Of a stretch of 64,000 nt of DNA, positions 27,764-64,000 are shown piece by piece. This DNA comes from Convolutriloba macropyga (taxonomy: Eukaryota), in assembly GCF_964194025.1 (NCBI RefSeq), contig NC_134482.1, forward strand, positions 17,794,001 through 17,858,000, written 5' to 3'. The translations under genes were made by a program, and so were the position numbers. The notes under the pieces were generated by a model, which worked only from the letters and a program-made list of their open reading frames with translations, made no database searches and had not been told where the DNA came from. Position 1 is the first letter of the stretch. Each line of letters starts with the position of its first letter.

Positions 27764-28104
27764 AATTATAATACTTCACATATCATTGCAACATTTGTGT
27801 TTATGCATAGTTAATTATATTCTAAACATATTTTGAAATCCCGGTCGACCGAGCCATCTTAGATCCGCGAAGGGACAAATTTTCGTGCTATTACGATAAT
27901 ACCCAAGATACCATTAACGGTCTTATGACGCTTATAAACAAATGGCGCGAAAAGTTGATCGCACCCCGAAAGAGATCAAATTCTTTGACGGATTATGGGT
28001 TGGATTATTGCAGAAGCGAATTTACTGGTCGCAATGAATTCAAAATAATAATCATCATTATTTTTCATTTTTCGTTAAATTTTAAACTTTTCATTAAAGT
28101 CTAT

Positions 28105-29388
28105 TTTTCGAAATTTTGCAATTTTTTGGCGTTCTGGCGAGCCAAACACCAAAAATACAAAAATTTTCGTGTCCCCCCTCAACCGTTGCGAACACAGTAA
28201 CACGCAAATGTCCCCCCCCCCACCGTAGCGTGCCCAATAAGACACATTTTTTTTGACCAATTGGATCTTTTTTGACGTTTTTGATGTGAATGGTTTGTTT
28301 TGGATGTTAGGTGTGAAGTAGCGCTGCTCTTTTAGTGGTTGTCATTTTGTCATTAGCTCAGGTGAGACTATTCAATGGAAAAAAGTGAAAAATTTTGAAA
28401 ATAGGAAATATTGATGTTCTAAAATTGCCTGAAATGCATTTTGCGCCGGGTTTAAAGTCGCAAAGATGATTTGTTTTGTTGACTTCATCTCACCTAGTGG
28501 GTCTCACGATCGAAAAAAATTTTGAAGTTCTAAAATTGCATGAAATGCATTTTGCGCCGGGTTTCAGGTCTCAAACATGATTTTTTTGTTGATCTCTTCT
28601 CACCTGGTGGGTCTCATCATAAAAAACTGAAAAATTTTAAAGTTCTCAGATTGCATGTAATGTATTTTGCGCCGGTTTTTAGGCGCAAAGATGATTTTTT
28701 GTGGACCTCATCTTCCCTGATGAATTTCGTCTATCGAACAAAAAACTTTTGTCTACGGAAAAGTTTTGGGAAAACTGCAAAATTTTGAAGTACTCACAAC
28801 GTTCATCTTGTTATTTCGTCAGTATATAGAATTATAAACCATATCACAAAACTTAGTCACCAATCACGGCTTACTTACTAGTTGAAAAAAAAACGTTGAG
28901 TGTTGCATTCCTCATGTCTGTTGCTATCGGTCAGTCTGCTCAAATATTTGTTTCACGATTTAATTGATCAAGCGTAAGAACAAAATATAGTAATAAGTAA
29001 GGTCAGTGGTTGCTGTTGTTGTTGCTAGAACTATCTGAGTCGCAAGTCTATTTTTAGATATAACTGTTTACTATGACTAACTCTCATGGTCACTGCCAAA
29101 ATTCATTTTACACGAGTAATCGTCGTAATCGATTGTGATTGGACGATCGATCGTCCGACAGTGTCAATGAATTATTTCGGAATAGGTTTACATGTTGAAC
29201 TGTCTGCATTGGGTGGTGTTATTATAGTTTAACAAGATACTTATATAGCAATAGAGCAGACTCATATGAAATTGTTTGAGTTTCAGTTGGAGTTTAATTT
29301 ATAAACAAATTTTGTCAGTGGTTAACGATTGTTCCTTCTTCGATTTTTCTCACGATATTACTTGCACAGAAGAACGTCATGTAGTTGC
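28105..29388 (+). repeat. Left TIR of the Maverick (outermost ~80 nt missing); contains three ~117 bp tandem units
   Basis: Reverse complement of ~39895-41160; internal unit GAAATGCATTTTGCGCCGGGTTTCAGGTCTCAAA... at ~28430, 28545 and 28660. Confidence 0.9.
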
Positions 29389-31390
29389 TTTTTTTAAAAC
29401 GACTCTACTACAATAAGGACCCCGAATTTAAGGCAATATATCATCTGTTTGTCTTGTGTTTGACCTAACAGATACATAATATTGGATTAAAGCTTGAATA
29501 CTGCCAGGAAAACATGTTGAACTTTTATCACCATGACTAATAAATTTTGTTCTCTGAAATTACTTTCAACCATCAAATGAGTGAAAACTAGAGAGACCAA
29601 CAGAAAATCAAGCTGAATTTTCAATTTTTTTCATGCAATTTTAGTAGCTTAGTAAAATATATCTAATGCAATACACAAGGTTAGACCTGTTTGAACTGTT
29701 TGAGTTTTTTTATAAGACTCATTTAACTTCACTTTTTTTGGAGCCCTACAAGAGCTGACAGGCGGCGTTTCAAGACTGCTGGTTGCCACAAGCTTAACAA
29801 ATTCGGGTGTTTTGATTACACTTGTTGTTATTGCTGTAGACGGTATTGAAGTTTCGAAGTTGATTTACCAAAAGATAGGATTTTCCAAAAGTTTTCAATG
29901 AGTTTCAAATCCTGCCAATACTTGTCCTGATTTTCGTAGATAGGTACTTCTTGAACATCGTAATCATAGGAAATTCATCTAATGTCATCTCCCAGAACGT
30001 TTGAATCAAAAGTAAACTCACGAGTATAAACCGCTACAAATTCCAGAGTATATTGAGCTGCCTTAAGTGAAGCTTTTTCAAATCTAAAAGATTGAACGAA
30101 ATCGAAAGTAACAACAGGTAATGCCATGTGTTTCAGTTTTCCTTTCTTCACCTTGATACTCTTGCTGGACGATAACAATATTCTCTTTTCAAAGTCTCGT
30201 ATGCAATTGTCCGGGTACTGGTAGATGACTTTTCTTTCAGTATGACTGCAATTGGAAACATTTCAGTAAGTCAGTGACCACTACTTCTGTTTTCACACAT
30301 ATAAACTGACTTATAATTGACTTGAATAATTTGTTAAAAATTTTTGAGCTTGAATATTTTGGTCAATATCCCAAAAAAGACACCTTTAAAAGAGTATGTT
30401 AAGAGAAATTTGAGAATATTACTGTTAACGTTATCTGAACAGTATTTATTCACAATAATTATCAAGCGCAAAATGATTTTTTTCTAACTATTAGTAATTG
30501 AGACAGAATACACAATTTGTATTTAAATTATAGGGAATTTAAAGAATCTGGTTTGAGCGTAAAGTTGAATACTGTTTTGTAGGCGTTGTGCTACTATATT
30601 TAGAAGTATCTGTGTTCTACAAAGATTAATGTACATGGACGAGAAGAATTATTTTTCAGTGTATGTAGTTCTCATGCTACATGTATTTTCCTTATCTAAA
30701 ATAATCACAGCTTTTCAAGTACTAGTGTAATCCACGCCAGTTTTTATCTTTCCGGAAAGCTATTTTTAGCATCAAAAACGAATCTTCTAGTTTGGTTGTT
30801 ATTGTTGCTACAGTACATTTTGTTCACACCCGTGGAATCAAAAGGAAAAATAGACAAGTGCGTTTTTGTTTGTGAAGACTTTCAGGAATGAGAGGTTATG
30901 TAAAATTGCTACCGTCTTACAAATGATCCAAGAGAAATATAAAAAATACTTAACCATTACTTTGGACACCTGAACTCCAGCAGACATAAATTTTGCAATC
31001 TGTTCATCTATGATTCAAATTTATTTGATTTCTTTAAGCAGAAATTTAAAACTTTGTCTAATTTTCTCAGTTTCGGTCGGTTTTAATCTCACTTAGAATG
31101 CATTTTGATATACCAATTGTTTGTAGATACTGCTTGAAAAAAATTCATGAGAAGTATTTGATATTGGCCTCAACTTACCCAATGATTTCAGCGAGACTGA
31201 ATTATTTTCTAGCAGCAAGTGAATACTTCAGTCAAACGGAGAACTTCGATTATGATAATGCTTTGAAACTTCCACCATACGGAGGAATTATTCCCTGGAA
31301 GCTTAATATTTGCTTTACTGGTCATCTGACAGGAATTCTTTTTCGCTTGTATATTAAGTTTTTTCACTCTAACATTTATCATTTGTTGGA

Positions 31391-31870
31391 ATGTTAAGCA
31401 GTAAAGCAGTTGTGTTAGACCTTGAAGGTTTCCGTCACAGGAAAGAAAAATTTATTGTCAAAGAGTTTGGTGTGTGTACTGAGGATTACAACGATTGTGT
31501 TTTGTTGTCTCCACCATCGAAATTTTCTGATTTGACAAATCCGCAGAAAACATCAATTGGTTATCTGAAAATTTACATGGCTGAAATTGGAACTCTGAAA
31601 ATTATCCTTTTATTTATCTGACTCAAATTGTTCGAAGCATTCGCTTAAGAAGCCCGAGAGTGGTTTATTACGCTAAGGTTTTTTGAAAAGACTCAACTTT
31701 TATCAGATTTACTGGACTGTCCAGTAATCGATTTAAATACTCTTGAGTGTCCTAAAATATTGTACGGTTTTTTTTTACATTTATCTGTGTGAATCATAAC
31801 TCAGCACAGCGTGGTAGCTTCAATAATCATGTGCAAGAGAAAAAGCTTGTTTCTATTTTACTGGTTGGCT
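31391..31870 (+). pseudogene. Maverick DEDD-type (RNase H fold) nuclease-like accessory gene, frameshifted
   Basis: VVLDLEGF...FIVKEFGV...SPP, then in shifted frames WLSENLHG.NWNS, YYAK, EKTQLL, VIDLNTLECP. This pattern is typical of the small nuclease carried by animal Mavericks. Confidence 0.7.
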
Positions 31871-31884
31871 AATGAGAGGAATTG

Positions 31885-32180
31885 ACGAAAGTGGAAGCAC
31901 CCTTGTCAGCGAATTCGTCCATTTGCGCCTTGATCACGAAGGAGGGGACACTGAAACTCAATTTTTAAAGGCGAAGCAGTATAAAGTGGTACTCAAATTC
32001 GTCCGAGAAAAGTTAGGGTGTTATTGACAGAGGACGAAATCCGTTCAATTACAAACTTGGTTTTCTACATCGAACCTTTTATTCAGTGGAGAAAACGAAA
32101 TGTCGGATTGTCAACGCAAAGTCCCGCCTCGGAAACTTCTATTGATATCGAAACATCCAACTGGTAAAGAAGTAGATAAA
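31885..32180 (+). pseudogene. Possible PC4-like ssDNA-binding protein remnant
   Basis: Across frameshifts: KVEAPLSANSSICALITKEGTLKLNF/LKAKQYK...REKLG/VLLTEDEIRSI, resembling the PC4 strands followed by a KGISLTxEQ helix. Confidence 0.3.
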
Positions 32181-32650
32181 AATGATGAAATGCTGCCTGA
32201 AGAAATTCAAGTGATAAAATGCTGCCTGAATAAATTGAACTCGTGAACAAGGACAAGGTCAAAAAAATTATGTACTATGAAAAAACTTCACGATTACTCG
32301 CATGTTTCATGGTGCACTTGAATGATTTTTTGAGTGATTATAGTTGTTATGAACTGTTCTATGTAAAATATTAAAAAATTACAATAAATTTTTTTACTCA
32401 TTTTTTTGTGATGGAACAAGTGACAGTTGATCAAGTTGTGCAAGGTACTCCTTTCGAAAAGGAAAGTAGTGGAAAATCTAATTGGAAGTTCTGTAATCAG
32501 ATAACGTTACCACGGTCGGAAGGTGTTTTTTTGTTCAAATGTTTGTAATTTTGATGCTAATAGTTCTTTGCATTGTGAAATTGACTGTGCTTAAACCAAC
32601 TTGTGAGAAAACATCAGTTTGGATTTCGATTCTGTGGAGTTTAGTTGGAT

Positions 32651-32861
32651 ATACCTTTCCAGACCCTCGATTATGAACAAAATAATCCCTAACAGTGACA
32701 GAATTTTTATGGCCGTGGTAAGTCCATCGGGTTGTGATGAAACAAATTTAATTTTCAGAATAATAGCAGGAAACTCCTTTTATCCAAAGTTTAAAAATGT
32801 TATTTTTCTCTACCACGAAATGCAACCAATATACTCACAAGTTGACCCGCATTTATACTGA
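32651..32861 (+). pseudogene. Maverick A32/FtsK-like packaging ATPase, truncated N-terminal remnant
   Basis: MAVVSPSGCDETNLI is a decayed Walker A (GPSGCGKT), followed by VIFLYHEMQPIY; the Walker B half is deleted. Confidence 0.75.
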
Positions 32862-32876
32862 AGCGAATGGTACTTT

Positions 32877-33860
32877 TATCTGATTCTGAGTCGAGGAAAT
32901 TTCTCCGCACTTCCGATGACAATATTGTATTGGTACTGTTAATGTTTTTTGCAACGTCATCAGAGGACATGTGAACGTGATTAAGACTGTTCTTCGTTAA
33001 ATTGTTTCGGTTCGTTATTCAGTTCGGTTCATTGATTTAGTTCGGCTCATCATTCATTTTTGCTACCAGTATTTGAGTCAATCATAAAAGAGAGAATGAC
33101 AACTGCTGAGGAGTTCATTTTAAATCCCAAAAAAGTCTATATGAAAACTCAACCACAGCAAACCCTGGTCATAGAATATCCTGACGTTAAACAAAAATCG
33201 TCACAGCTGTCTATTATAAATAGAGTGCGATCAAAGGAACACAATGAAGCACATATCAATGCAAACCTGTCGGAACAAGACTCTGGCGTTGATGTTGACA
33301 AAAATTGGGTCAGAAATTCAAATAGACGGGCAGATCAAGTCCTAAAAACATTATCATCGCTTTTGTCTCATTCAAAATACTTAAAGTGTGATTATATTGT
33401 AGATCTAATTAAAATGTCTAATCGTGTTCTCATTGGCGAAGACGAGAAGTTACTCATTTACAACAGTCCAAATGACATAAACGCATTCGCTTTCGTGTAC
33501 AATTTACAGCAACCAACAAAGAAAATTGAGAGTCCTGTTTATTTTGATTTATTAAAAGTGTTACAAATAAAGAAGGAACAAGAAATTAACAGCAATGCTA
33601 ATACTTCGATCAGGAAAAAATTCTACAAAAACCGCAACAAAAAGAAAAAAGTCGAGAGATTACATAAAAGAAAAGAGTTCAAAGTTTCAAAAGCCCAAAG
33701 AACAAAGACGACCAGACAGCAAAGGCGAAATCATCGAAGACGAACGCATCAGTTACAAAAAAGAAGAGGAACGAAGATGAAAGCATCAGTTACGAAAAAG
33801 AAGAGGAACGTTTCGAAACTCCGTACGAAGCAAGTGTACAGAAGGAAAAAGAATAGGAAT
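32877..33860 (+). pseudogene. Two conserved Maverick ORFs of unknown function between the ATPase and integrase
   Basis: RKFLRTSDDNIVLVLL/CNVIRGHVNV...FLLPVF resembles the small ICECxxNVLxGNV protein. MTTAEEFILNPKKVY... starts the next gene (N-terminal part of ORF 33060-34277). Confidence 0.45.
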
Positions 33861-34789
33861 CCTACGACTAGTGAAGAAAAATTGCTGCAGTCGATGTACA
33901 CAAAAGGTCCAGCTGCGTTTGGAAGCGTTCAAAATTTACAAAAAAGCATAAACTTGCAGCCTCGCAAAGTGAAACAGCTTCTAGCGAACAAAAATGCTCG
34001 AACAAAATATAAAGGGTTTCGAAAAAATTTTGCACCTCTGAATGTTATTGCATATGACATTGATGAAATTTGTTCCCTTAACTTGGCACATGTGTACAAA
34101 CTTTTAACACAAAACGCAGGTTTTAAGTACTTATTGATTGCTATTGACTGTCTTTCACGCTATCTACGTGTTGAACCGCTCGAATCAAAATATGCAACAA
34201 CAACAGCCGAAGCCTTCAAACAAATGATTAAACACAAACAGCCCAAAAAAGTTTGGGTTGATGCTAGAACAGTTTGAAAACTCTGTCAGAAGAAAGATAT
34301 AGAAATTTATCAAACTTTCAGCGAAAAGAAGTCTGCTTTTGCTGAAAGGAACATCCGCTCTTTAAAGAACATTATTTATAAGGATCTGGAAGAAAATTGG
34401 ACATATTCATACATCTCTCAGTTGAAAAATTTTGTACAAACAATAAACTCACGCATTAACAGTATAACCAAAATTGCTCCGAACAAAGTCACCAAAAACA
34501 CGTTCCATATCTGTTATCATTAAGCTTAATTGCGTCCGAGAAACTAGTTAGTGGACCAAAATTTCGAATTGGAGATTTTGTTAGAATATCAAAAGTTGAT
34601 TTACACTTCCGAAAAGGTTATAAACAGACTTTTTCCAACGAAGTGTTTGAAGTTTACGATATTCCATCGATAAACCCTTCAACATACAGCCTAATTGATT
34701 CGACTCAGAATCCAATCAGTGGCAAGTTCTATCAGTTGGAATTAGTGAAAGTTGTTGGCAATAGCGAAGCGTTCATAAAGCATGAATGA
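33860..34789 (+). pseudogene. Maverick retroviral-like (rve) integrase, frameshifted
   Basis: YTKGPAAFGSVQNL, FKYLLIAIDCLSRY, PKKVWVD; after the frameshift KSAFAERNIRSLK, INSRIN, PKFRIGDFVRISK, FRKGYKQTFSNEVF, ISGKFYQLEL. The first catalytic Asp appears as N (SLNLA). Confidence 0.92.
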
Positions 34790-35221
34790 GTTCACCATAC
34801 ATTTAGCTTCATCACCTTCCATGAGCATCTTTCCATAGAATACTTTGGCCAACTTAAAAAACATTCTTAATGAATTCAGCCTTGAAGGTGATTGGAGAGT
34901 GGCTTTGAGTGAAATTATGTTCCCATCCAGAATCAACCAGATTAATAGCACTCGAATCATAAAGTATTTTTCCGAAGGTATCAAAAACCATCAGAGAAGT
35001 ATTCCATTTGGTGCTGTCTCGAAACCATACAATGGTGAGACAGTTTTAATCAGCGCTGGAAGCTTTGAGAACTTATAAAAGCCATCAAAACAGCGACTGG
35101 TCTAACTAAATGCAGTCATCAGTATATTGAGGCTCAGTTGAGAACCGAAACTGGCAAATTTGTTCCATTTACGGGAACAGGAAAAGCTATTCTGACTTTA
35201 AACTTAGGAAAATATAATTAA
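34782..35221 (+). pseudogene. Maverick minor capsid protein (penton), internally deleted
   Basis: MNEFTIHLASSPSMSIFP*NTLAN...LEGDWRVALSEIMFP at the N-terminus and IEAQLRTETGKFVPFTGTGKAILTL at the C-terminus. Confidence 0.85.
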
Positions 35222-35640
35222 ATGGAAGCGTACTATCAACAACAATCAGTTTCACCATACTTTGCGGGACACTATCGGCAACGAGGTAGTCGGTTCGGGG
35301 CTTTAGCGGCTGGAATTGGTAGGGCGGCCATACCGATAGCCAAAAAATTTGTGTGGCCTGTTGCTAAAAAGATTGGAAAAGAACTGTTTGTACAAGAGGA
35401 ACCAGAGATTGTTGACGTTGTCGCCGAAAAGAAGAGTCCTAAAGAAGCACTTAAATCATATTTTCAGAAAACGGTAAAGAAGCAAGTTGGTGGCTCAAGA
35501 GCTCGAATAGGAGGTGTTCGTGGTGGCAATGTTCTTAAAAAAAACAGATACGGAGCGGTCCTGTCAAATCCCGAAAAATCATTCAGAGAAAACAACCGTT
35601 ACTGGGAAGTCGGTCAGATTTTTGTTCCAAAGTCAAAAAT
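35222..35640 (+). pseudogene. Maverick virion core/maturation protein with adenain-type Gly cleavage motifs
   Basis: MEAYYQQQ...FAGHYRQRGSRFGALAAGIGRAAIP...KQVGG followed by a basic tail; sits between the minor and major capsid genes. Confidence 0.75.
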
Positions 35641-36608
35641 GAATACTAACTTATTGCCAGCAGAGGCAACACACACAACTCCAGACCTGTTTGAAAAATA
35701 GCCTCTCCTTATTACCTTTGACAATGCTTTTACACAAAAGGCTGGTCCATCATATTCACCGGATGGTCCAATGCTGGAATTTGAAGTTGTTGGCGACAGG
35801 AACAACTTTATTGATTTGCAAAAATTTCTACTTGAAATAAAATGCAAAATCACGAGAACCAATGACGCCGATTTGAGAACAGGTGCTGATGCAACGAACA
35901 CAGATTTGCCGTATTTTAGCAAAAACGCACTGCATTCTCTGTTTTCAGAGTGTACAGTCTCGTCAGGCGGTGAAATTGTCAAATACAAACGGCAACTACG
36001 CACACAAGGCTTTCATAGAAACAGAGTTCTCATCCGGAAAAACAGCCGAGAACACTTGGTTAGTCTTTCAAGGCTATTATGAAGACGAACCGGCTAAAAT
36101 TTATGGAGCTGACAACAGCTCTACTGAAGTTGCTGCACGAAAAGGTTTTGCTGACTCTCTGGAATTTTTTCTCCTTGGAAAATCGGCCAGTGATATATTG
36201 AACTGTGACAAACATCTCAGTGGTGTTACCCTAAGCATCTCCTTCAGAAGGTCACCAAATGATTTTACCGTCATATCCGAATCTATACAGAGTAAAAATT
36301 GTTGAAGCAAATCTTTACGTGCGCAAAATTACCGTGGCTGACCATGTTTTGTCTGCGATTGAAAAAACTTTGCTTAAAACACCAGCTTTCTACTGGTACA
36401 CGGAGGTTACTTCAACACGGGAGGCTTCACACGATTTCATTCATCCTGAATTTACGAATTGTTCAATTTCAGTGGAGCTCACTTTTGGAATTCCTTTGGG
36501 TGACAACGTTGAAGTTTTATTCCTAGGGGAACGAAGTTCAAATTTTACGTCAACTCTGAACGAAAAGTTACAAGAAACTCGTTTATTACATATCCGGTTG
36601 ATGGATAA
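35639..36608 (+). pseudogene. Maverick major capsid protein (double jelly-roll), with stops, frameshifts and an internal deletion
   Basis: DLFEK, GPMLEFEVVGDRNNFIDL, NALHSLFSEC, NYAHKAFIET, KIVEANLYVRK, SISVELTFGIPL; the segment between YWYTEV and the C-terminal strands is missing. Confidence 0.88.
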
Positions 36609-37027
36609 TTTTGAGATAAGTTATCTAGTAAGTATATGTTTTCATCTGAAGCACAAGTTTTTCGGAGTTTTGCAGCTAATAATTTTCCAAGACTGCCAGT
36701 TAATTGTTTTGTTGTGGTCAATGCCTCAATTTTAACATCATCGGGTAGTCATTGGCTACTGATTTGTAACTAAAAAAAAACAATTTACTTTGCTGATCCA
36801 CTTGGGCAGGCACTGGATTGCTACCATTTTGTATACACTCGACTGCTGCAGTTCTACTTCGAAGAAGAGGTTGTTAAATTTCTCAGATTACAGCCAATTC
36901 AGAACACAAATTCAAAACTTTGAACTCTTTTGTATTTATTTTCCTCATTATTTTTACATATAGCTATCCATATAAACACTACATGAATGATGATGATTTA
37001 CTACGATTTGCTAAGCATATAGTGTAA
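36601..37027 (+). pseudogene. Maverick adenain-like cysteine protease, copy 1
   Basis: FFGVFAANNFP, VVNAS...GSHWLL, YFADPLG, IQNTNSKL[CG lost]LFCIYF; the His-Asp-Gln-Cys layout is recognisable, with frameshifts. Confidence 0.88.
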
Positions 37028-37192
37028 TAAAAATAAATAACTTAATTTTTTCAGTAACAATTGTTTTATAAATCAGATGTATTTTTTCCTTTGAAGCTAG
37101 ATGGCTCGGTTTTTTTCTTTATTGTTGGAAAAGTTGGATTAATTTTTTTAATTCAAATCGGTAGTTAATTTTTACACTATCATTATCAGCTT

Positions 37193-37744
37193 TCAGACAG
37201 CCATATCTACTATTAATAATATCAATAATTTTTGAGAGTTTGCAAATGAACTGTTCTGATAAATTTTTAAAAATCGATTAAAAGTACAAGTTGGTAGAAA
37301 ATCAGTTTGCACATGAACATTCTCTTTGATAGTTTCCAGTTCCAAAACATTTGGAAGTTTTCTTTTAGAGCTAAATAAATCTAGCTGATGTTGGTGATTA
37401 TAAATGACTGCTTGCTCCAATTTCTCAAAAATTTCACCGTGAAGAGTGACGTTGATAGATTGTGATTTGTGCAGTAGAAGTCTGAAGCATGTGTATAGGC
37501 AAGAAATCGAATAGAGCTTTGAAGCAACTTTTTTGAGACTATCTGTTACTTGATCCAAAGCTGCAATAACATGATAATGTTCTTATTTTATTTCATAAAG
37601 GTTGTTATTCTCATGCAAACTGTAAGCAAAACTGTTGTTGATTTCTTTATCAAGTATTGGCTCAGTGCTGCAGATAAAATAGTGAAGTTACTATGGAAAC
37701 TGTCGAAAGAACTCAGGTGTTCGTTCAAACATAGCCTCAACCAT
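37193..37744 (-). pseudogene. Maverick accessory ORF with an HUH-like motif, copy 1
   Basis: One frame from ATG 37744 with in-frame stops: MVEAMFERTPEFF...FAYSLHENNNLYEIK*EHYHVIAAL...; continues into ORF 37193-37558. Confidence 0.45.
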
Positions 37745-38372
37745 TACTAATAATGTGTGTCGCTCTCAGCACTTCTCTTCGCTTTCTTTTTTGGTCGATC
37801 AACAACCTGAGTTGATTTATTTCGCCAAGAAAACTTGGTTAGTTTGTCAAGGCTATTATAATGAAGACGAACCGGCTAAAATTTATGGCGCTGACAACAG
37901 AGCAACTGATGTTGCTGCACGAAAAGTTTTTGCTGACTCTCTGGAAAACCGGCCAGTGATATATTGAACTGTGACAAACATCTCAGTGGTGTTACCCTAC
38001 GCATCTCCTTCAAAAGGTCACCAAATGATTTTGCCGTCATATCGGCATCTATACAGAGTAAGTATTGTTGAAGCAAATCTTTACGTGCGCAAAATGACCG
38101 TGGCTGACCATGTTTTGTCTGCGATTGAAAAAACTTTGCTTAAAACACCAGCTGTCTACTGGTACACGGAGGTTACTTCAACACCGGAGGCTTCGCACGA
38201 TTTCATTCATCCTGAATTAACAAATTGTTCAATTTCAGTGGAGCTCACTCTTGGAATTCCTTTGGGTGACAGCGTTGAAGTTTTATTCCTAGGGGAACGA
38301 TGTTCAACTTTTTGCGTCAACTCTGAACGAAAGGTTACAAAAAACATTACTAAAAAATTACATAACCGGTTG

Positions 38373-38795
38373 ATGGATAATTTTGAGATAAATTATCTTG
38401 TAAGTAAATGTTTTCATCTGAAGCACAAGTTTTGCGGAGTTTTTGCAGCTAATAATTTTCCAAGACTGCCAGATAGCTGCTTTGCTGTGGTCAATGCCTC
38501 AATATCAACATCATCGGGTAGTCATTGGCTACTGATTTAAAAAAAAAACAATATACTTTGCTGATCCACTTGGGGAAGCACTGGATTGCTACCATTTTGT
38601 ATACACTCGACTGCTGCAGTTCTACTTCGAAGAAAAGGTTTTTCAATTCCTCAGATTACAGCCAATTCAGAACACAAACTCAAAACTTTGAACTCTTTTG
38701 TATTTATTTTGCTCATTATTTTTACATATAGCTATCCATATAAACACTACATGAATGATGATGATTTACTACGATTTGCTAAGCATATAATGTAA
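38373..38795 (+). pseudogene. Maverick cysteine protease, copy 2
   Basis: MDNFEINYLVSKCFHLKHKFCGVFAANNFPRLPDSCFAVVNASISTSSGSHWLLI, then a frameshift. Confidence 0.85.
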
Positions 38796-38962
38796 TATAA
38801 AACAATAATTTAATTTTTTTTTCAGTAACAACTCTTTTTATAAATTAGTTGTATTTTTTCCTTTGGAGCTAGATGGCTTGGTTTTTTCTTTTTTGTTGAA
38901 AAAGCTAGATTAATTTTTTAATTCAAATCGAAAGTTAATTTTTACACTATCATTATTAGCAA

Positions 38963-39525
38963 TCAGACACCCATATCCACTAATAATAATATCAATAATG
39001 TTTGAGAGTTCTGCATATGAACTGTTCTGATAAATTTATAAAAATCGATTAAAAGTACAAGTTGGTAGAAAATCAGTTTGCACATGAACATTCTCTTTGA
39101 CTCTTTGATAGTTTCCAGTTCCAAAACATTTGGAAGTTTTCTTTTAGAGCCATATAAATCTAGCTGATGTTGGTGTTTATAAATGACTGCTTGCTCCAAT
39201 TTCTCAAAAATTTCACCGTGAAGAGTGACGTTGATAGATTGTGATTTATGCAGTCGAAGTCTGAAGCATGTGAATAGGCAAGGAATCGAATAGGGCTTTG
39301 AAGCATTTTTTTGAAACTATCTGTTACTTGATTCAAAGCTGCAATAACATGATAATGTTGTTATTTTATTTAATAAAGGTTGTTATTCTCATGCAAACTG
39401 TAAGCAAAACTGTTTTTGATTTCTTTATCAAATATTGGCTCAGTGCTGCTGATAAAATAGTGAAATTACTTTGGAAACTGTCGAAAGAACTCAGGTGTTC
39501 GTTCAAACATAGCCTCAACTATTAC
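38963..39525 (-). pseudogene. HUH-like accessory ORF, copy 2
   Basis: FAYSLHENNNLY*IK*QHYHVIAAL (HYH at 39349-39357); duplicate of 37193-37744. Confidence 0.4.
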
Positions 39526-39586
39526 TAATACTGTGTGTCGATCTCAGCACTTTTCTTCGCTTTTTTGATCAATCAACAACCTGAAT

Positions 39587-39971
39587 TTATTTATTTCTAT
39601 TTGTATCCGACGAGAAAGCGAGATGATAACGTCGTTTTCTTCCCGTTGTCTTATTCCCTTCTTTTTTCGTAGATTCCTCTGACTCTCCAGTCTTTATTAT
39701 TTCACAGAGTGTTTTGTAGCTTTGACTTAATTGTTCAATCTCAGCTAAAGATAGTGTAATTGTCTGGTTGAACTTGAAACCACTGTTTTCTTTTGTTATT
39801 GTTTTTATTGTCTTGGATTGTATCACGGAAGTTATCCTTTTTGAAAATTGTTACCGTTATATATGTCCCAGTAGTGTCGTAAGTTTTTACACATGCAGCT
39901 ACTTGACGTTTTTCTGCGCAGGTAATATCGTGAGAAAAATCGAAGAAGGAACAATCGTTAACCACTGACAT
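39587..39971 (-). pseudogene. Possible PC4-like protein whose start lies inside the right TIR
   Basis: MSVVNDCSFFDFSHDITCAEKRQVAACVKTYDTTGTYITVTIFKK / FKFNQTITLSLAEIEQLSQSY; beta-rich region followed by an ITLSxxE helix and a basic tail. Confidence 0.35.
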
Positions 39972-41239
39972 AATTTGTTTATAATTTAAACTCCAACTGA
40001 AACTCAAACAATTTCTTATGAGTCTGCTCTATTGCTATATAAGTATCTTGTTAAACTATAATAACACCACCCAATGCAGACAGTTCAACATGTAAACCTA
40101 TTCCGAAATAATTCGTTGACACTCGGACGATCGATCGTCCAAGCACAATCGATTACGACGATTACTCGTGTAAAATGAATTTTGGCAGTTACCATAAAAG
40201 TTAGTCATAGTATACAGTTAATTCTAAAAATAGACTGGTGACTCAGATAGTTCTAGCGACAACAACAGCAACCTCTCATCAGCAAATATTTGAGCAGACT
40301 GACTGATAGCAACAGAAATGAGGAATACAACAAAGACTCTACGTTTTTGTTTCAACTAGTTAGTAAGCCGTGATTGATGACTAAGTTTTGTGATATGGGT
40401 TATAATTCTATATACTGAGGAAATAACAAGATGAACGTTGTGAGTACTGCAAAATTTTGAAGTTTTCCAAGTTTTTTGTTCGATAGACGAAATTCATCAG
40501 TTAAGATGAGGTCCACAAAAAATAATCTTTGCGACCTGAAACGCTGGGCAAAATACATTTCCTGCAATTTTCATACCTAAAAATTTTCATATTTTTACTA
40601 CATTTTCAAAGTTGTTTTCGATGAGACCCACAAGGTGAGATAAGGTCAACAAAAAAAATCATGTTTGAGACCTGAAACCCGGCGCAAAATACATTTCATG
40701 CAATTTTAAAACTTAAAAATTTTCAAATTTTTGCAAAATTTTCCAAAGTTTTTTTCGATGATGAGGCCCACTAGGTGAGATGAGGTCAACAAAAAATCAT
40801 CTTTGAGACTTGAAACACGGCGCAAATTGCATTTCATGCAATTTTAGAACATCAAGATTTTTCAAAATTTTTCTTTTCAAATATTTTTTCATTTAATAGT
40901 CTCACCTGAGCTAATGACAAGATGACAACCACTAAAAGAGCAGCGCTACTTCACACTTAACATCCAGAACAAACCATTCACACCAAAAACGTCAAAAAGG
41001 ATCCAATCGGTCAAAAAAATGTGTGTTACTGGGCACGCTACGGGGGGTGATATTTGGGTATTACTGTGTTCGCAATGGGGGGAACACGAATTTTTTTTGT
41101 ATTTTTTGGCGGTTGGCCTGCCAAAACGCCAAAAAATTGCCAAAATTTCAAAAAAAAATTTTCGTATCCCCCCGTTGCGAACACAGTAACATCCAAATGT
41201 CCCCCACCCGTTGCGTGCCCAGTAAGACACCTTACTACT
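39895..41239 (-). repeat. Right TIR of the Maverick with intact AGTAGT terminus and terminal fold-back
   Basis: Inverted copy of the left TIR; 41021-41090 and 41161-41230 are inverted repeats of each other; ends in TACTACT at 41239. Confidence 0.9.
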
Positions 41240-42090
41240 GATATATCTATAAAAATTACAAAAAATTTTCCAAGTTTTTCTCTGCTAGCTTTTGTCAAAT
41301 TTTAATTTCCCCAAGACGCAAGTTTATTATTGCAAAAATATCAGAAAAGTTTTTTTCTTTGACCATGTATTTGGCTTGTGGCCATTACAGCCAGCCCATC
41401 AGACCCCCTCCCCGATCCAAGTTTAGCGGAGGAAGGGCATCTACTCACCAATTAAATCAGATTTTTCGAGCTGACTGTTTGACAGCAAAACCATTGACTG
41501 CAAAACTTGTGCAAACTCTACAGTGTTCTAAGAAGTTGAACTAAAAACATTGACAGTTTCGAACGGGAAATTGTGTAAACTTTTTAAAAATTAAAAACTG
41601 AACGCACTTTTTTATTTAAAAATCCGAGTTGAAGATGAGCTCTACTTAGGACATTTTGGGGCCTTAAAATTGGAGGCTATTTTAATTGCTCTGAAACAAA
41701 GATTGTAGCAACTGTATTAGTCCTGTGGTCTTTTATTCGATTTCTTCTCTTGACCATTTTTTCGTCTGACCCTTTTATTTTCTTCCTCAAAAACGGGGTA
41801 AACAGTTGAAGTCCGGGGGCATTATTTGGCTGGGCAGCTCTCTCAGAGCCTTACGCCGTTCTAGTCTCTAAGTATGCGATCCACCAAAACTGTTTTGAGG
41901 AGATCATTTCATGGTGTGAAGTGGGGTTCGCAATGTTAAATGTTTCAGCTCCCTCAGCCAACCCCCAGTTGAACCCCGATCGCGTTCCTTGAGCCCCCCT
42001 CGCGTCCATTGGGTAATGTGTCTAAAAATTGAAAATTTCGCAAATGACTGTTGAATTTTTTATTTGAGCAATAGATCCATCTTTCTCTTC

Positions 42091-48170: not shown

Positions 48171-49299
48171 ATGCAGTCCCAAAATGAAAAATTCATTCAG
48201 CACGAACTCACAAAGCAGGCATTGGGCCTTAATGGGGATTTAAAACTCGGTCTCAGCACAACGCATAATTGCTCAAAGCAAGCCAGCTGTGAAATATCTA
48301 ATTTTGTCAGACACGAAAATCTATTGGACGATGAATTTGATGAAGCCTTCGAATCGACCGAAAAATCTGACCAATCAAAAACAGAGGTTGACTCTCGTGC
48401 CGAATTACAGTCAACAGTACCCACTCCCGTTGTTACAAAAGATATAAATGAAATCAACAGGATTTGGAATGAAAAGCGAAATAAAATTCAAAGCGATCAA
48501 ATTCCCACCAAAACTCCAGAAACAATTGATATTACGTCCATATCAATAACCTCTGAAACTGATAATAAACCTATAATTGTACCATTCAAAGACAGAAATA
48601 GAGCATCAAAAATTGACGCAATTGTCGTGGAATCTTCGAAATTGTTGATAAGCGCAAACGGCGATGCGCCGATTTCGGTCAAAAGCGAAACATCTTTTGG
48701 GCTGCAGAATTCAAGCTCGGTGACCATCGGAGCAACGTCTGAGATTGCGGAATCCCAGAAACTTGATGACTTTGAGAAAACGTCCAGGTTCAATCAAGAA
48801 ATGGAAGATTTGAAATCTATGGCGTTGCCGAAAAAGGAAATCGAACAGGGGCTTAAATTTGACAAGGGAACGGGAACTTACTTGGAAGAAGAAAACACCA
48901 CCACTAAGGAATCAGCTAACGAGAAATTACTCCCAAGTAATTTTTTCAAATTGCCTTACAGTGAACAAAATTTGAAACTTGAAGAGCCTATTGAATTTCA
49001 AGACGATGATGACGTTTTTGAATCGAAAGATCAATCAAGCTCTTCAGATTTTGTTTGTTGCAGTGTTGAACAAATGATGTATCTTTTCACATCTCCAGAG
49101 CTAAATTTTTCACAGATTCAACCGGTTGTTCAAGTGAGCGGCTGGAAGTCTTTGAAGAAAATGTTCAGTGGTCCTCCGAAGCTAAATAAAACTCTGATTA
49201 AAGAACGTGATTCAATATTTGCTCTTGCAAAGATGGAGTTCAATTCTGGGGACGAGTTTCATGTTTCTATGCTGAAAACTGTGTACGCCGCATTTACAA
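48171..49299 (+). CDS. ELMOD3: ELMO domain protein ELMOD3-like (ARF/ARL GAP), exon 1
   Basis: ORF 48153-49304, first ATG at 48171; low-complexity N-terminus, then FSGPPKLNKTLIKERDSIFALAK...HVSMLKTVY; donor ACAA|GTTAGT, phase 1. Confidence 0.82.
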
Positions 49300-50003
49300 G
49301 TTAGTCTATTTTTATCGACTGTTCAATGTATTTAGTTAATATGCTTAGTTCGGATCTACGACCCCAGTCCACCCCTGAACAAAAATCGTTTAAAAACTAA
49401 CCTCAAAAAATGTTGAGTTTTGCTCTGATTATACTTTGGGGATTCTAATAAGTAAGGCAGACCAGAAGTGGGCTCCTTTTACAGCCTTAAGGTATAAAGA
49501 GTTACGGCTACTTGTCTCTGCATGCGAAGTAGGCTCACCTATATCTCTCAGACTAACTGACTCTGTAAAACACTGAAGATAAACTTCAATTATTACGGTG
49601 GTTATAAAGAGTAACACTCGAGTCAGAGGTATACACATCGTGCAACTACTCTAATAGACTGACTACGTTTAACATACAATTATAGAGAAGTAAAAATATT
49701 GATTTCAGATGTTCATAATCTGCAGAGAAATTTTGAAGATGGTGCCTTGATGGAAAAATGGTTGAATATTCAATTGACCGCGTTGATGTTCTGTCAATAT
49801 AGTTGAGCGATACTTGAACCGAGGTTTGATTGTGGCTAAAAGACACGCAACCTTCTGCTAGGAGAAATCGTATTTTCCATGATGATAGGGCACCAGTAAT
49901 TGATTTTTCAGGGGCCTATTTCTTATTATTTCAATAGGGAACTGAAAAATTCGAATTCCCGATTATTTCACGAGTCAAAATAGTCAAAAATTTTTTGTTC
50001 CAG

Positions 50004-50662
50004 ACACCAGGAAATCATGTCCACTTCAAGGCTCTCACTGGTCCGAGGTTGGTTTCCAGGGCAACAATCCCAGTACAGACTTCAGAGCTTGTGGAATGCT
50101 GGGGTTGTTCCAACTGACGTTTTTGGGAATCCAATACGCAGAATTAGCCCAAAATCTCTTCAAATTGTCCCAGCATTCAACTTCAAATTTCCCATTGGCC
50201 GTGTTATCTATCAATCTGACTAAAATATCACTTCAGATTCTGAGAGAGGAAAAGCTGAACAAAATTTGCAACTCGGAAAGGAAAGTTATCGAACCTTTTA
50301 ATGATTTGTTTATTGCAATGTGGAAAATGTTCTTTTCTGTTTGGAAGTCGGAAGATAAAACAATCGGTGATTTTGCGTTCGTTTTGAAAGATATCGAAAC
50401 TGCTGCTGCAAAAGATTCAAAATTTTTTATGTACCGAAACCTTCAGCAATCAGATGTCAGTGACGCGTTCAAACTGAACAAACAGAAAAGGGAGAAATCA
50501 GAAGCAAAATTAACAGAGCATAAGTCAGCAGCAACTTCGAAAAACAAGTATGCTATCGAGGAGAAAAACCAATCAATCGTTCAAGACGAAACAGATCATC
50601 GCAATCATGCAAATGGTTCTGAGATTAATTTTGTCGGCATTGATAGTTTATCACCTAACTGA
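50004..50662 (+). CDS. ELMOD3: ELMOD3-like exon 2 (ELMO/CED-12 domain with GAP motif); total about 595 aa
   Basis: Acceptor TTGTTCCAG|AC, phase 1; CPLQGSHWSEVGFQGNNPSTDFRACGMLGL (WxxxGFQxxxPxTDFR arginine finger), FPLAVLSINLT, LREEKL, KTIGDF. Confidence 0.9.
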
Positions 50663-53232: not shown

Positions 53233-53679
53233 ATGAATTTACCCTGTTCGAGTATGACCCACGCCAGAAGTGCAACCATTATCATCGTAGTTCTGAAAGG
53301 AAAACTTGACGATCAGGAAAACTGTTCCGAGTTGACCTCGCTGAACTTCAACGAACCGGAAGCGGATTGCGTGAAAACAGTCAAGATTGGTCGAAGTGAA
53401 AACGCGAGTGATGATTTATTCATAACTATTGCACATGATGCCGTTTCTCAATTGCACTGTCAGCTCAATTTTAGATGTCAAGGTGTGGTTGAAGTCGAAG
53501 ATGCGAGTTTTGAGGTCATCGACAAAAGCAGAAATGGCGTTCTGGTTAGCGGTCAAAGGGTCACGAAAAATGTGCCGTGTTCTGTCAAGTTTGGGGAGAA
53601 AATTTTGATTGCCAAAAGGTCAACAGATGATTGTGTTTGGCTGAAAGTTACGAGAGATGTGCCAGTTCCTTCAACTGAG
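53233..53679 (+). CDS. FHA domain-containing protein, first or early exon (rest not visible)
   Basis: VKIGRS...VSQLHC...VIDKSRNGVLVSG...GEKILI gives the FHA GR, SxxH and NG motifs; GAG|GTAAAA donor at 53679/53680. Confidence 0.8.
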
Positions 53680-53791
53680 GTAAAATGTGTTTTCTGAAAT
53701 TACACTATTGAAAACTGTGATTGAGGCTATTAGCGGTGAACGCAAATTAAACCGACGTAAAAGTAAGCCGAACGTTATGTGAAAGTCATAT

Positions 53792-53814
53792 NNNNNNNNN
53801 NNNNNNNNNNNNNN
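53792..53814. other. Assembly gap (23 N)
   Basis: Run of N. Confidence 1.
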
Positions 53815-53847
53815 CCCAATGCGTGCCCAGTAAGACACCTTACTACT
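53815..53847. mobile_element. Terminus of a second Maverick of the same family, abutting the gap
   Basis: TGCGTGCCCAGTAAGACACCTTACTACT is identical to 41212-41239; followed by CATATC, with CATAT directly before the gap. Confidence 0.85.
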
Positions 53848-54458
53848 CATATCTTTCAGAAATAATTATTGTTGACCGTTACAACCAGGACAGCGTATAG
53901 TATTTGCGATTTATAATGTATTATAGTTCCTCAAAGAAACAAAAATAAGGTCATTTTGAGTGATCAAGTGAATGCAAGCCTCAGTGGATCACTGTCCAAG
54001 GCGATGCCTCTCATCTGCAGTGAGATGTAATCCGGAAATCGTGGCGGAGCCCGCGCACTGGCCGACTTCGGACATTATGATGCGGCTATCTCGAAAATTT
54101 TCAGCTTACTTGTCCTCTTTCTTCAAATTAAACGATTAAACGAAATTGTTTTGAATAACTGGAACACAAATGGTCATATAAGATATAATTCGTTTGGATG
54201 ACTTTGAAGTTTAGAGAATGGTGTTCCATTGAAAAATTTTTGCGCTTTTTAACCTAATATTTGTTGCAGAAAAACAAATTTTGAGGAGTACTGGTTTTTA
54301 TTTCTTCACATTTTTTCAATTTATTTTTCACCATTCCTTTAAAACCTGACAAGCACCATTTTTTCCAGTCACGCAAACAGAAATCTGCGATTTTTGTTTG
54401 CAAGTGTCTCAGGTTTGAATTCAAGTTTTCAGCTCTTCGGTTTCTTGATCAGCTTTTT

Positions 54459-63257: not shown

Positions 63258-64000
63258 GACCAAACTTTTCATTTGTTTATTAAATGAATCTTAAAATGTA
63301 AATGTTTCACCAAACTTTTTGTTATGGTTTTGATCATTTAGGTTTTCTAGATTTAACAAAATGATCAGAAATTTTTTGTCTTATTTCTGTTCATCTGATA
63401 TATTAACCGTACTTAGTACCAACGCGTAGGACAGAACCTTCATCGTAATTTCAATTGTTAACGTAAATTAATAGTGAATCTAATTATGCATATCGCATTT
63501 TTAATGTTTTTGTGCTTGGAGTTGCACTGTATGTACTGGTGTTATAATTGTTCTATCAAAATTGTAAGGCATCTTGTAGAAATGATTTTTGGATTCAAGA
63601 AACCCTTTTTAGGGCTCTTACAATTGAATTGTTTCGAATTCTCAGTCGAATGTAGAATTAATTTCTCGGCATGATGAACAACTAGTCGTCCACGAAGCCT
63701 TCGGCATAAATGAAAACTTAGCTTTGTTCTGATGTTCTACTTTTTTCGGAAGATTAATCCACGTTTTGATTTCATACCTAGTGCAGAGGTTTTTCATTTT
63801 TGGTGAATTTTTTGTTCTTGTTAACTCTTAGATATCAAGTCATCAATGATAGTACAATTAATCAATTAATGTGCAAATTGTCGAAAACAAGAAGCAAGAA
63901 TAAGCTTTTTTTTCTGAGCAAGAAATGTCTCCTTGCAAAATAAAGAAATTTTATTTTGATAACTGCAAGAGTAATTTTCCTCCGAATATTCTAGTTTTTG

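What the first reader, a model, noticed from the sequence alone, without database searches (positions are those of the whole stretch)
41021..41239. Maverick terminus folds into a ~210 nt hairpin directly behind AGTAGT
Seen: 41021-41090 pairs with 41161-41230 (about 70 bp imperfect stem), and the spacer is itself palindromic (TTTTTTGGCG...CGCCAAAAAA), so each end can fold back on itself independently of TIR-TIR pairing. Established: Mavericks are thought to replicate by protein priming from TIR panhandles, whereas terminal hairpins serve as origins in parvoviral rolling-hairpin replication. Inference: together with the HUH-like ORF and no visible pPolB core, this could be a Polinton-like virus with a hybrid or alternative origin. 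This is the best candidate here for an undescribed system.
Basis: partly seen in the sequence, partly recalled or inferred. Interest (0 to 1): 0.75.

Follow-up and report, generated by a model that had tools for sequence, protein, structure and literature searches.

The report
Hairpin-ended Maverick with Rep-like gene
A virus-like jumping element in an animal genome ends in a long fold-back hairpin and, in this copy, carries no polymerase gene but does carry a small protein shaped like the nicking proteins of rolling-circle viruses, which hints at a different way of copying itself out of the chromosome.

Summary
The fold-back is real: 41021-41230 folds at z = -16.6, with a 9-nt cap containing the (AGT)2 motif left outside the stem. 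It is the right end of a decayed 13.1-kb Maverick-type element (28104-41239). The arm recurs in the left TIR and at 350-580 times single-copy depth in four host runs, with 21-22 different flanks at the same end. But no invariant catalytic tyrosine sits in motif III, and no helicase is fused. This copy has no pPolB; whether intact members do could not be tested. Covariation was untestable and flip/flop inconclusive. The cap outside the stem argues against plain parvoviral rolling-hairpin replication. Terminal palindromes (protist virophages/PLVs), HUH plus integrase (Mriya-like viruses) and pPolB replacement (group 2 Mavericks) are each in print; their union in an animal Maverick was not found in five searches. 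Best reading (0.45): the HUH-fold protein acts on the hairpin as origin or rescue signal.

The parts
41021..41090 (.). inner arm of the terminal fold-back
   Evidence: pairs with 41161-41230; also present in the left TIR at about 28159-28248
41091..41160 (.). spacer, itself folding into a T/A-rich stem with a sub-hairpin at 41102-41136
   Evidence: -16.1 kcal/mol on its own
41161..41230 (.). outer arm of the fold-back
   Evidence: summed contig depth 354-582 times the single-copy flank in 4 of 4 runs
41231..41239 (-). unpaired 9-nt cap with the (AGT)2 Maverick end motif; element end at 41239
   Evidence: 21 and 22 contigs leave here into unlike flanks in runs X2, X3; motif as in PMC8097293 section 7
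39883..41239 (-). right TIR, about 1.35 kb, with a 136-bp tandem array at 40504-40872
28104..29400 (+). left TIR, truncated at its outer end (loop and inner arm kept; outer arm, cap and TSD lost)
   Evidence: colinear with 41155-39883, 92% identical over 1208 ungapped columns
38898..39528 (-). HUH/Rep-fold gene, copy next to the right TIR; broken by stops and frameshifts
   Evidence: profile of alignment A4 hits three frames, iE 7e-25 to 2e-19
37127..37756 (-). HUH/Rep-fold gene, second copy from a tandem duplication; broken by stops
   Evidence: read with X at stops; 113 relatives; iE 8e-62; fold of relative P0131
39590..40028 (-). small ORF in front of the HUH-fold gene, reaching into the TIR; 'PC4-like ssDNA-binding' is a recalled resemblance, not confirmed
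   Evidence: fused to the HUH-fold gene in relative P0232; no Pfam family for P0230
33096..34786 (+). ORF of unknown function run together with a broken rve integrase
   Evidence: 114 relatives, many with PF00665; PF00665 E 0.0064 on the window's own frame; 50% to L005 integrase
34779..37020 (+). broken minor-capsid-like, PW-like, major-capsid-like and protease-like genes (names from gene order and recalled motifs)
   Evidence: the first three are 39-56% identical to the genes behind the integrase in L005; same order as module 2 of vertebrate Mavericks; no Pfam hit and no usable fold
36045..39597 (+). 1.78-kb tandem duplication (36045-37823 / 37824-39597) covering capsid end, protease-like and HUH-fold genes
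   Evidence: 94% identical over 1751 ungapped columns
29490..32860 (.). slot upstream of the integrase where pPolB would lie: unidentified ORF remnants at 29490-30262 (-) and 30570-31397 (+), an exonuclease-like remnant from 31391 and an ATPase-like remnant from 32673 (both labels recalled)
   Evidence: no PolB motif, no match to a control pPolB or helicase; no Pfam or PHROG family
53820..53847 (-). second element terminus, identical to 41212-41239, beside a 23-N gap
   Evidence: CATAT left of the gap and CATATC right of the end fit a 6-bp TSD with 5 letters visible

Best explanation
An integrated Maverick-type virus whose ends are a fold-back origin served by its own small HUH/Rep-fold protein. 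Shown: TIRs, (AGT)2 end, integrase, a fold-back in the TIR end, a conserved Rep-fold gene beside the TIR. Inferred: the rve integrase inserts the element through the AGTAGT cap (6-bp TSD); the fold-back extrudes as a hairpin or cruciform; the Rep-fold protein binds it and, if active, nicks it, using a metal held by three histidines and a tyrosine from the helix after the last strand rather than from motif III; the free 3' end lets a host or helper polymerase displace one strand, releasing a copy from the chromosome, much as AAV Rep rescues an integrated genome (recalled). Whether a pPolB or another replicase then amplifies the copy is open; this copy has none.
For: Hairpin far beyond chance and family-wide: arm in both TIRs, inner-arm-type loose ends at 41230 in 3 of 4 runs and a contig joining 40998 to the reverse of the outer arm in 4 of 4 runs; arms with other spacers (loose ends at 41169). 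Stem mismatches are mostly private decay: 58 of 69 columns equal in all three arms, 6 private to this inner arm, 3 to the outer, 2 to the left. Rep-fold gene: H53 and H55 each 74 of 80, H40 67 of 77, spacing like His39/His55/His57 of pMV158 RepB (PMC5030251 passages); AlphaFold model pLDDT 89.9; the first 13 rows of the wide structural search and the first 8 Foldseek PDB rows are Rep nuclease or origin-binding domains; parvoviral NS1 leads the viral library. Most conserved tyrosine: position 110, 36 of 45 full-length relatives with the triad, inside the range aligned to SIRV1 ORF119 (5-115, Z 3.8). Precedent that terminal palindromes go with non-pPolB replication genes.
Against: No invariant tyrosine anywhere; in the motif-III helix the best is 29 of 45, while two cysteines are 45 of 45, which fits a structural zinc site as well. 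Z-scores of 5.0-5.7 are modest and no Foldseek E-value reaches 0.001. The (AGT)2 motif is read as a mark of protein priming (PMC8097293 passage). The cap lies outside the palindrome, so simple hairpin priming would not regenerate it (inference). This copy has other internal deletions, so pPolB may just be lost. No link between protein and hairpin was shown beyond sharing the element. The four runs are one study, at most two samples.
Confidence: 0.45

Rival explanations
1. Ordinary protein-primed Maverick family. Intact members encode pPolB, this copy lost it by deletion, and the Rep-fold protein is a nuclease-dead, zinc-binding origin-binding helper (as the origin-binding domains of SV40 large T and papillomavirus E1 are, recalled); the fold-back is its binding site or a structural part of the origin.
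For: (AGT)2 end kept; no invariant catalytic tyrosine and two invariant cysteines; SV40 and papillomavirus origin-binding domains score Z 4.1-4.7, within about 1 of the Reps; this copy is deleted elsewhere (ATPase-like and minor-capsid-like genes are partial).
Against: All three histidines are kept in 45 of 51 full-length relatives; no pPolB remnant found in the slot; 5 of 15 listed members of one HUH cluster sit on contigs of 8,975-9,930 nt and none on a longer one, about the size of an inter-TIR region without pPolB (weak hint).
Confidence: 0.3
2. The fold-back is a by-product: a snap-back or template switch at the end of an ancestral element copied about 70 nt into an inverted repeat that was then inherited passively and has nothing to do with the Rep-fold gene.
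For: The Halocafeteria preprint itself offers accidental annealing as an alternative; earlier unchecked notes describe snap-back palindromic Maverick derivatives in other genomes (e1-7804329, e1-7803791); no compensatory change was shown.
Against: Arms stay alike across copies whose spacer and sub-terminal sequence differ (loose ends at 41169 and 41230; arm depth 354-582 times single copy against 8-16 times for this copy's inner-arm bins), which suggests constraint or constant homogenisation.
Confidence: 0.2
3. A MITE or an assembly fold-back artefact sitting at the Maverick end.
For: Very high depth on the arm; the second terminus abuts an assembly gap.
Against: The two arms differ at several sites, so it is no read fold-back; the inner arm and spacer occur in both TIRs in register; 21-22 contigs end exactly at 41239; no TSD brackets the palindrome itself.
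Confidence: 0.05

Closest known systems
Animal Mavericks/Polintons (PMC8097293: section 7 and passages read)
   Same: TIRs of about 1.3 kb, (AGT)2 end, probable 6-bp TSD, rve integrase followed by minor-capsid-, PW-, major-capsid- and protease-like genes in the same order
   Different: no pPolB in this copy; a 210-nt terminal fold-back and a Rep-fold gene ('hairpin' and 'palindrom' occur 0 times in that paper)
Group 2 Maverick-Polintons (bioRxiv 10.64898/2026.06.19.733378: section 5 and passages read)
   Same: animal elements in which pPolB is often replaced by another replication gene
   Different: the replacements named are SF1/SF3 helicases fused to a polymerase or primase; HUH is reported there for Mriyavirus-like clusters, not for Mavericks; group membership of this element was not tested
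Halocafeteria virophage subtypes 1, 2, 5, 6 and PLV subtype 4 (bioRxiv 10.64898/2026.07.28.741278: section 7 and passages read; supplements closed)
   Same: palindromes in the TIRs next to the TSD, rve integrases, mostly non-pPolB replication, hairpin priming proposed
   Different: protist host; 52-nt palindromes in subtype 5; the replication genes named in the text read are primase-helicases and polymerases, no HUH
Mriyaviruses and Zora/VC218 clusters (bioRxiv 10.1101/2024.02.29.582850, passages)
   Same: dsDNA jelly-roll viruses with a HUH protein and no polymerase; Zora and VC218 often have rve integrase; SIRV1 ORF119 is their best structural match
   Different: NCLDV-like capsid module, protist hosts, motif III YxxK conserved, helicase present; no terminal hairpins mentioned in the passages seen
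pMV158 RepB and SIRV1 ORF119 (PMC5030251 and PMC4187194, passages)
   Same: small HUH initiators without helicase; RepB is 210 aa with three metal histidines and nicks an extruded hairpin; ORF119 serves a closed linear dsDNA genome by a flip-flop mechanism
   Different: 17-22% identity only; RepB's catalytic Tyr99 has no conserved counterpart in the matching helix; two invariant cysteines here
Parvovirus rolling-hairpin replication (recalled; NS1 fold matches)
   Same: terminal fold-back with a branched spacer, Rep-fold protein
   Different: no fused SF3 helicase, a 9-nt cap outside the palindrome, integrase and Maverick gene set

Membership tests
Classical (group 1) Maverick/Polinton | terminal inverted repeats | tested here: met
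   28104-29400 / 39883-41155
Classical (group 1) Maverick/Polinton | (AGT)2 or (AG)3 end motif | tested here: met
   right end 41239 and second end 53847; left end lost
Classical (group 1) Maverick/Polinton | 6-bp TSD | tested here: inconclusive
   not recoverable for this copy; 5 of 6 letters match across the gap for the second end
Classical (group 1) Maverick/Polinton | rve integrase | tested here: met
   broken in this copy
Classical (group 1) Maverick/Polinton | protein-primed PolB in this copy | tested here: not met
   0 of 4 motifs in six frames of the window, 3 of 4 in control L009; no tblastn or local match; about 2 kb between left TIR and the exonuclease-like ORF. Pfam and PHROG missed the control's PolB core too, so their silence does not count
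Classical (group 1) Maverick/Polinton | protein-primed PolB in intact members of this family | not testable with these tools
   no genome held; no full-length relative found
Classical (group 1) Maverick/Polinton | double jelly-roll capsid, packaging ATPase, adenain protease | tested here: inconclusive
   gene order and 39-56% identity to L005 genes; fold of the L005 relative failed (pLDDT 32); ATPase-like remnant 6 of 200 shuffles against L009 ATPase; motifs recalled
HUH/Rep endonuclease | Rep nuclease fold | tested here: met
   residues 14-104; 6h8o Z 5.7, rmsd 3.0, 81 aligned; 3dkx Z 5.0, rmsd 3.2, 86 aligned; modest scores
HUH/Rep endonuclease | HUH motif on a strand plus third metal ligand | tested here: met
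   HUHuu in 67 of 81 rows; H53, H55 on strand 54-59; H40 67 of 77
HUH/Rep endonuclease | catalytic tyrosine in motif III (YxxK) | tested here: not met
   helix 80-88: Tyr in 29, 8, and 4 of 45 at positions 81, 84, 86; hence called HUH-fold protein, not endonuclease
HUH/Rep endonuclease | alternative catalytic tyrosine reaching the metal site; nicking activity | not testable with these tools
   Tyr110 36 of 45; model coordinates not available in the script box
Parvovirus-type rolling-hairpin replicon | palindrome forms the very end of the genome | tested here: not met
   9-nt cap outside the stem
Parvovirus-type rolling-hairpin replicon | Rep fused to SF3 helicase | tested here: not met
   111 of 113 relatives are 240 aa or shorter; the 318- and 593-aa hits hold a low-complexity insert and a repeat; search for longer forms found none (weak)
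Parvovirus-type rolling-hairpin replicon | flip/flop spacer isomers | tested here: inconclusive
   left and right spacers have the same orientation; a strand-change joint 41116-41170 in 1-2 contigs in each of 4 runs could be an inversion or a divergent spacer

The most novel reading that the evidence does not exclude
A lineage of animal Mavericks has replaced protein-primed replication altogether: intact members keep integrase, (AGT)2 ends and the capsid module but encode no polymerase, and a new family of ~200-aa HUH initiators with a non-canonical nucleophile nicks a terminal fold-back to rescue and replicate the genome with host polymerases, as a SIRV1- or AAV-like hairpin replicon inside a jelly-roll transposon-virus, active enough to leave hundreds of ends in one genome and present in several hosts.
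Probability: 0.25. Interest if true: 0.87.

Novelty: new variant of a known kind. Interest (0 to 1): 0.68.

Why it matters
How integrated Mavericks leave the chromosome and start replicating has never been shown; a nickase-fold protein with a candidate target at the element's own ends makes that directly testable with one small protein and one oligonucleotide. It would also extend the hairpin-end/non-pPolB link proposed for protist virophages to animals, add a HUH-fold gene to the known replication modules of animal Mavericks, and define a protein family with no Pfam, PHROG or NCBIfam match that may use an unusual nucleophile or be a dead origin-binding offshoot.

Tried and rejected
No genome held. 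Terminal pattern: 0 hits in metagenome contigs; 4 hits of 17 nt in viral contigs are chance, no other similarity. No related locus in viral contigs for integrase, capsid-like, HUH-fold or the unidentified ORF or in prokaryote genomes; metagenome contigs gave 6 loci, none with both close relationship and termini; L009 is a distant complete pPolB element whose ends fold at only -17.4 and -20.1 kcal/mol (one control, different lineage). Unidentified ORFs at 29490-30262 and 30570-31397: no Atlas hit, no longer homologue, no PDB sequence, no match to control pPolB or helicase. Atlas search with the HUH fragment: hypothetical eukaryotic clusters, recognition below the mark. Sequence searches of PDB with the HUH alignments gave nothing relevant; Rep_OBD E 0.079 and two PHROG replication-initiator hits E 0.016-0.024 in 1 of 43 members each are hints only. 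Homodimer prediction with Mn: no verdict. Fold of the capsid-like relative failed. Rfam matches are generic miRNA-hairpin scores far below gathering. Covariation could not be counted: only one copy has both arms. pMV158 record not found by accession. Earlier notes: none on this genome or these sequences. Papers opened without bearing: PMC6431247, PMC12220804, PMC6451197, PMC11161782, PMC11662393, bioRxiv 10.64898/2026.10.13.758929 (passages only).

Full report
Observation. The sequence 41021-41230 folds back on itself: -83.6 kcal/mol as DNA, 0 of 200 shuffles as good, z -16.6; it is the strongest of 578 windows of 220 nt in the 64 kb (-77.5 against -36.1 for the next). The last 9 nt (41231-41239), which hold the reverse of AGTAGT, lie outside the stem.

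Context. The window is animal-type DNA: a Piezo gene runs from about 7946 to 27763. Right behind it lies a 13.1-kb element bounded by inverted repeats 28104-29400 and 39883-41155 (92% over 1208 ungapped columns). The left repeat keeps the spacer and inner arm but has lost the outer arm and cap, so no TSD can be read for this copy. Inside are broken genes: an rve integrase with 114 relatives on long contigs, then three genes 39-56% identical to those behind the integrase in locus L005, in the order integrase, minor capsid, PW, major capsid, protease given for vertebrate Mavericks (PMC8097293 section 7). The capsid, protease, ATPase, exonuclease and PC4 labels rest on gene order and recalled motifs; no library or fold confirmed them. 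A second terminus, identical over 28 nt, stands at 53820-53847 beside a 23-N gap with a probable 6-bp TSD, 5 letters visible.

The hairpin is a family trait. Logan contigs of four runs (one study, at most two samples, possibly the assembly's own source) were laid on 39600-41500 (tables cut: 462 letter rows, 101 joints and 1376 loose ends not shown). Summed depth on the outer arm is 354-582 times the single-copy flank, on the bins of this copy's inner arm 8-16 times, on the ORF in the TIR 123-177 times (not a copy number). In runs X2 and X3, 21 and 22 contigs leave at 41239 into unlike flanks (agreement 0.41-0.42): a true, much-used element end. Four contigs in each of three runs leave the arm at 41230 into an A/T-rich run, the signature of inner arms of other subfamilies; in all four runs a diverged contig passes from 40998 into the reverse of the outer arm; others enter the arm at 41169 from a different spacer. 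Among the three arms in the window, 58 of 69 columns are equal, 6 differences are private to this inner arm, 3 to the outer, 2 to the left arm. Of the three listed majority differences in the fold-back, two improve pairing in the predicted register and one does not, though it agrees with both other arms in the alignment. This shows homogeneity, not covariation, which could not be counted. Flip/flop is open: both TIRs carry the spacer in one orientation, while a strand-change joint 41116-41170 appears in 1-2 contigs per run with only 30-36 letters on the short side.

The HUH-like ORF. It is present twice through a 1.78-kb tandem duplication, at 37127-37756 and 38898-39528 on the minus strand, both broken. 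Read with X at stops it finds 113 relatives among 1.84 billion representatives, 51 of them 170-245 aa long, from ENA, Logan and JGI sources (30 clusters looked up, of which 27 HUH), some intact and repeated (P0137, 28 members; P0133, 74 members). In an alignment of 81 (78 of the 113 plus 3 cluster members), H53 and H55 stand in 74 of 80 rows each, H40 in 67 of 77, C46 in 74 of 77, C79 in 73 of 81. The model of relative P0131 is confident (pLDDT 89.9). Its residues 14-104 match Rep nuclease domains first in every library: nanovirus Rep Z 5.7 (rmsd 3.0, 81 aligned), circovirus Rep and pMV158 RepB Z 5.0; RepB holds the first 8 Foldseek rows, E 0.014-0.058; parvoviral NS1 leads the viral library, E 0.0018. 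Scores are modest, unrelated folds reach Z 4.0, and none passes E 0.001; the case rests on the run of Rep hits plus the motif on the right strand. The three histidines mirror His39, His55, His57 of RepB, a 210-aa initiator without helicase that nicks an extruded hairpin (PMC5030251 passages). Against an ordinary nickase: among 45 full-length relatives with the triad (of 51), the motif-III helix has Tyr in 29, 8 and 4 rows at its three candidate positions, both cysteines are 45 of 45, and the best tyrosine (36 of 45) lies on the helix after the last strand. That place recalls SIRV1 ORF119 and Y1 transposases (recalled; ORF119 aligns over 5-115 at Z 3.8). No helicase is fused. That the gene belongs to the Maverick family beyond this copy is only hinted at: relative P0232 is fused to the ORF that reaches into the TIR, the link region has 33-44 times single-copy depth, and by eye two contig lengths are shared between HUH and integrase records (91068, 274111; not counted systematically).

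pPolB. None in this copy: 0 of 4 motifs against 3 of 4 in control L009, no match to the control, and only about 2 kb between the left TIR and the exonuclease-like ORF. Pfam and PHROG missed the control's core as well, so their silence is not counted. For intact members the question stays open, since no genome is held and no full-length relative was found. One weak hint: 5 of 15 listed members of cluster P0133 lie on contigs of 8,975-9,930 nt and none on longer ones, near the 8.7 kb between this copy's TIRs once the duplication is taken off; other HUH relatives lie on contigs of 10-26 kb.

Mechanism. Most likely (0.45) the Rep-fold protein works on the fold-back as origin or rescue signal while the integrase uses the cap; binding, nicking and strand displacement are inferred, not shown. 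Plain rolling-hairpin replication fits badly, because a 3' end with a 9-nt unpaired cap cannot prime without trimming and the palindrome cannot restore the cap (inference); a nick in an extruded hairpin of the integrated or circularised form does not have this problem. The (AGT)2 motif is read as serving the jumping-back step of protein priming (PMC8097293 passage), which supports the main rival (0.3): an ordinary pPolB family with a dead, zinc-binding origin-binding helper. A functionless snap-back relic gets 0.2, a MITE or artefact 0.05.

What is known. Terminal palindromes next to TSDs, tied to non-pPolB replication genes and with hairpin priming proposed, are reported for protist virophages and one PLV subtype (bioRxiv 10.64898/2026.07.28.741278, section 7 read; its supplements are closed and may list the genes per subtype). 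pPolB is often replaced by helicase fusions in group 2 animal Mavericks, and HUH with rve integrase occurs in Mriyavirus-like clusters (bioRxiv 10.64898/2026.06.19.733378, section 5 and passages; 10.1101/2024.02.29.582850 passages). Replicon turnover at the TIR end is proposed for PLVs (PMC11296320 passages). A HUH-fold gene with a terminal fold-back in an animal Maverick was not found in five searches of the open library; subscription papers, including Kapitonov and Jurka 2006 and Oke 2011, were not seen. Because pPolB was tested and not found, this copy is filed as Maverick-type rather than classical Maverick, and the protein as HUH-fold rather than endonuclease.

Verdict. Observation confirmed; interpretation partly supported; new variant of a known kind; interest 0.68. 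The bold reading, a polymerase-less animal Maverick lineage with its own HUH initiator and hairpin origin, is not excluded (0.25; interest 0.87 if true).

Noticed in passing
window 53785-53853: A 23-N gap flanked by CATAT on the left and 33 nt of element terminus plus CATATC on the right: probably a second insertion collapsed at its hairpin, about 95 nt behind an FHA-domain ORF (53233-53697).
   Followed up: partly
window 41240-41245 and 53848-53853: Both flanks read NATATN, and pooled flanks at 41239 begin alike: the integrase may prefer an ATAT-centred target.
   Followed up: no
window 56087-63259: Four head-to-tail units of about 1785 bp, 98% alike, each holding a 744-bp imperfect palindrome (66-68%); the unit shows decayed reverse-transcriptase-like motifs (recalled), perhaps two LINE fragments head to head.
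   Followed up: partly
window 7946-27763: Piezo gene with very long exons (913- and 1370-codon frames), the Maverick-type element starting about 340 nt after its stop.
   Followed up: no
window 1045-3577 with 10670-14249: Old inverted repeats of 1.3-1.9 kb, 68-75% alike, upstream of and within the Piezo gene; not identified.
   Followed up: no
window 40504-40872 and 28416-28713: Tandem units of 136 and 111 bp inside the TIRs; depth up to about 40,000, so the unit is shared by many more loci; candidate iteron-like binding sites.
   Followed up: no
L009 1-14284: A complete 14.3-kb Polinton-like element with short TIRs encoding both a pPolB with an endonuclease VII insert and a D5-like helicase.
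   Followed up: partly
window 48171-50662: ELMO/CED-12 domain gene (PF04727).
   Followed up: no
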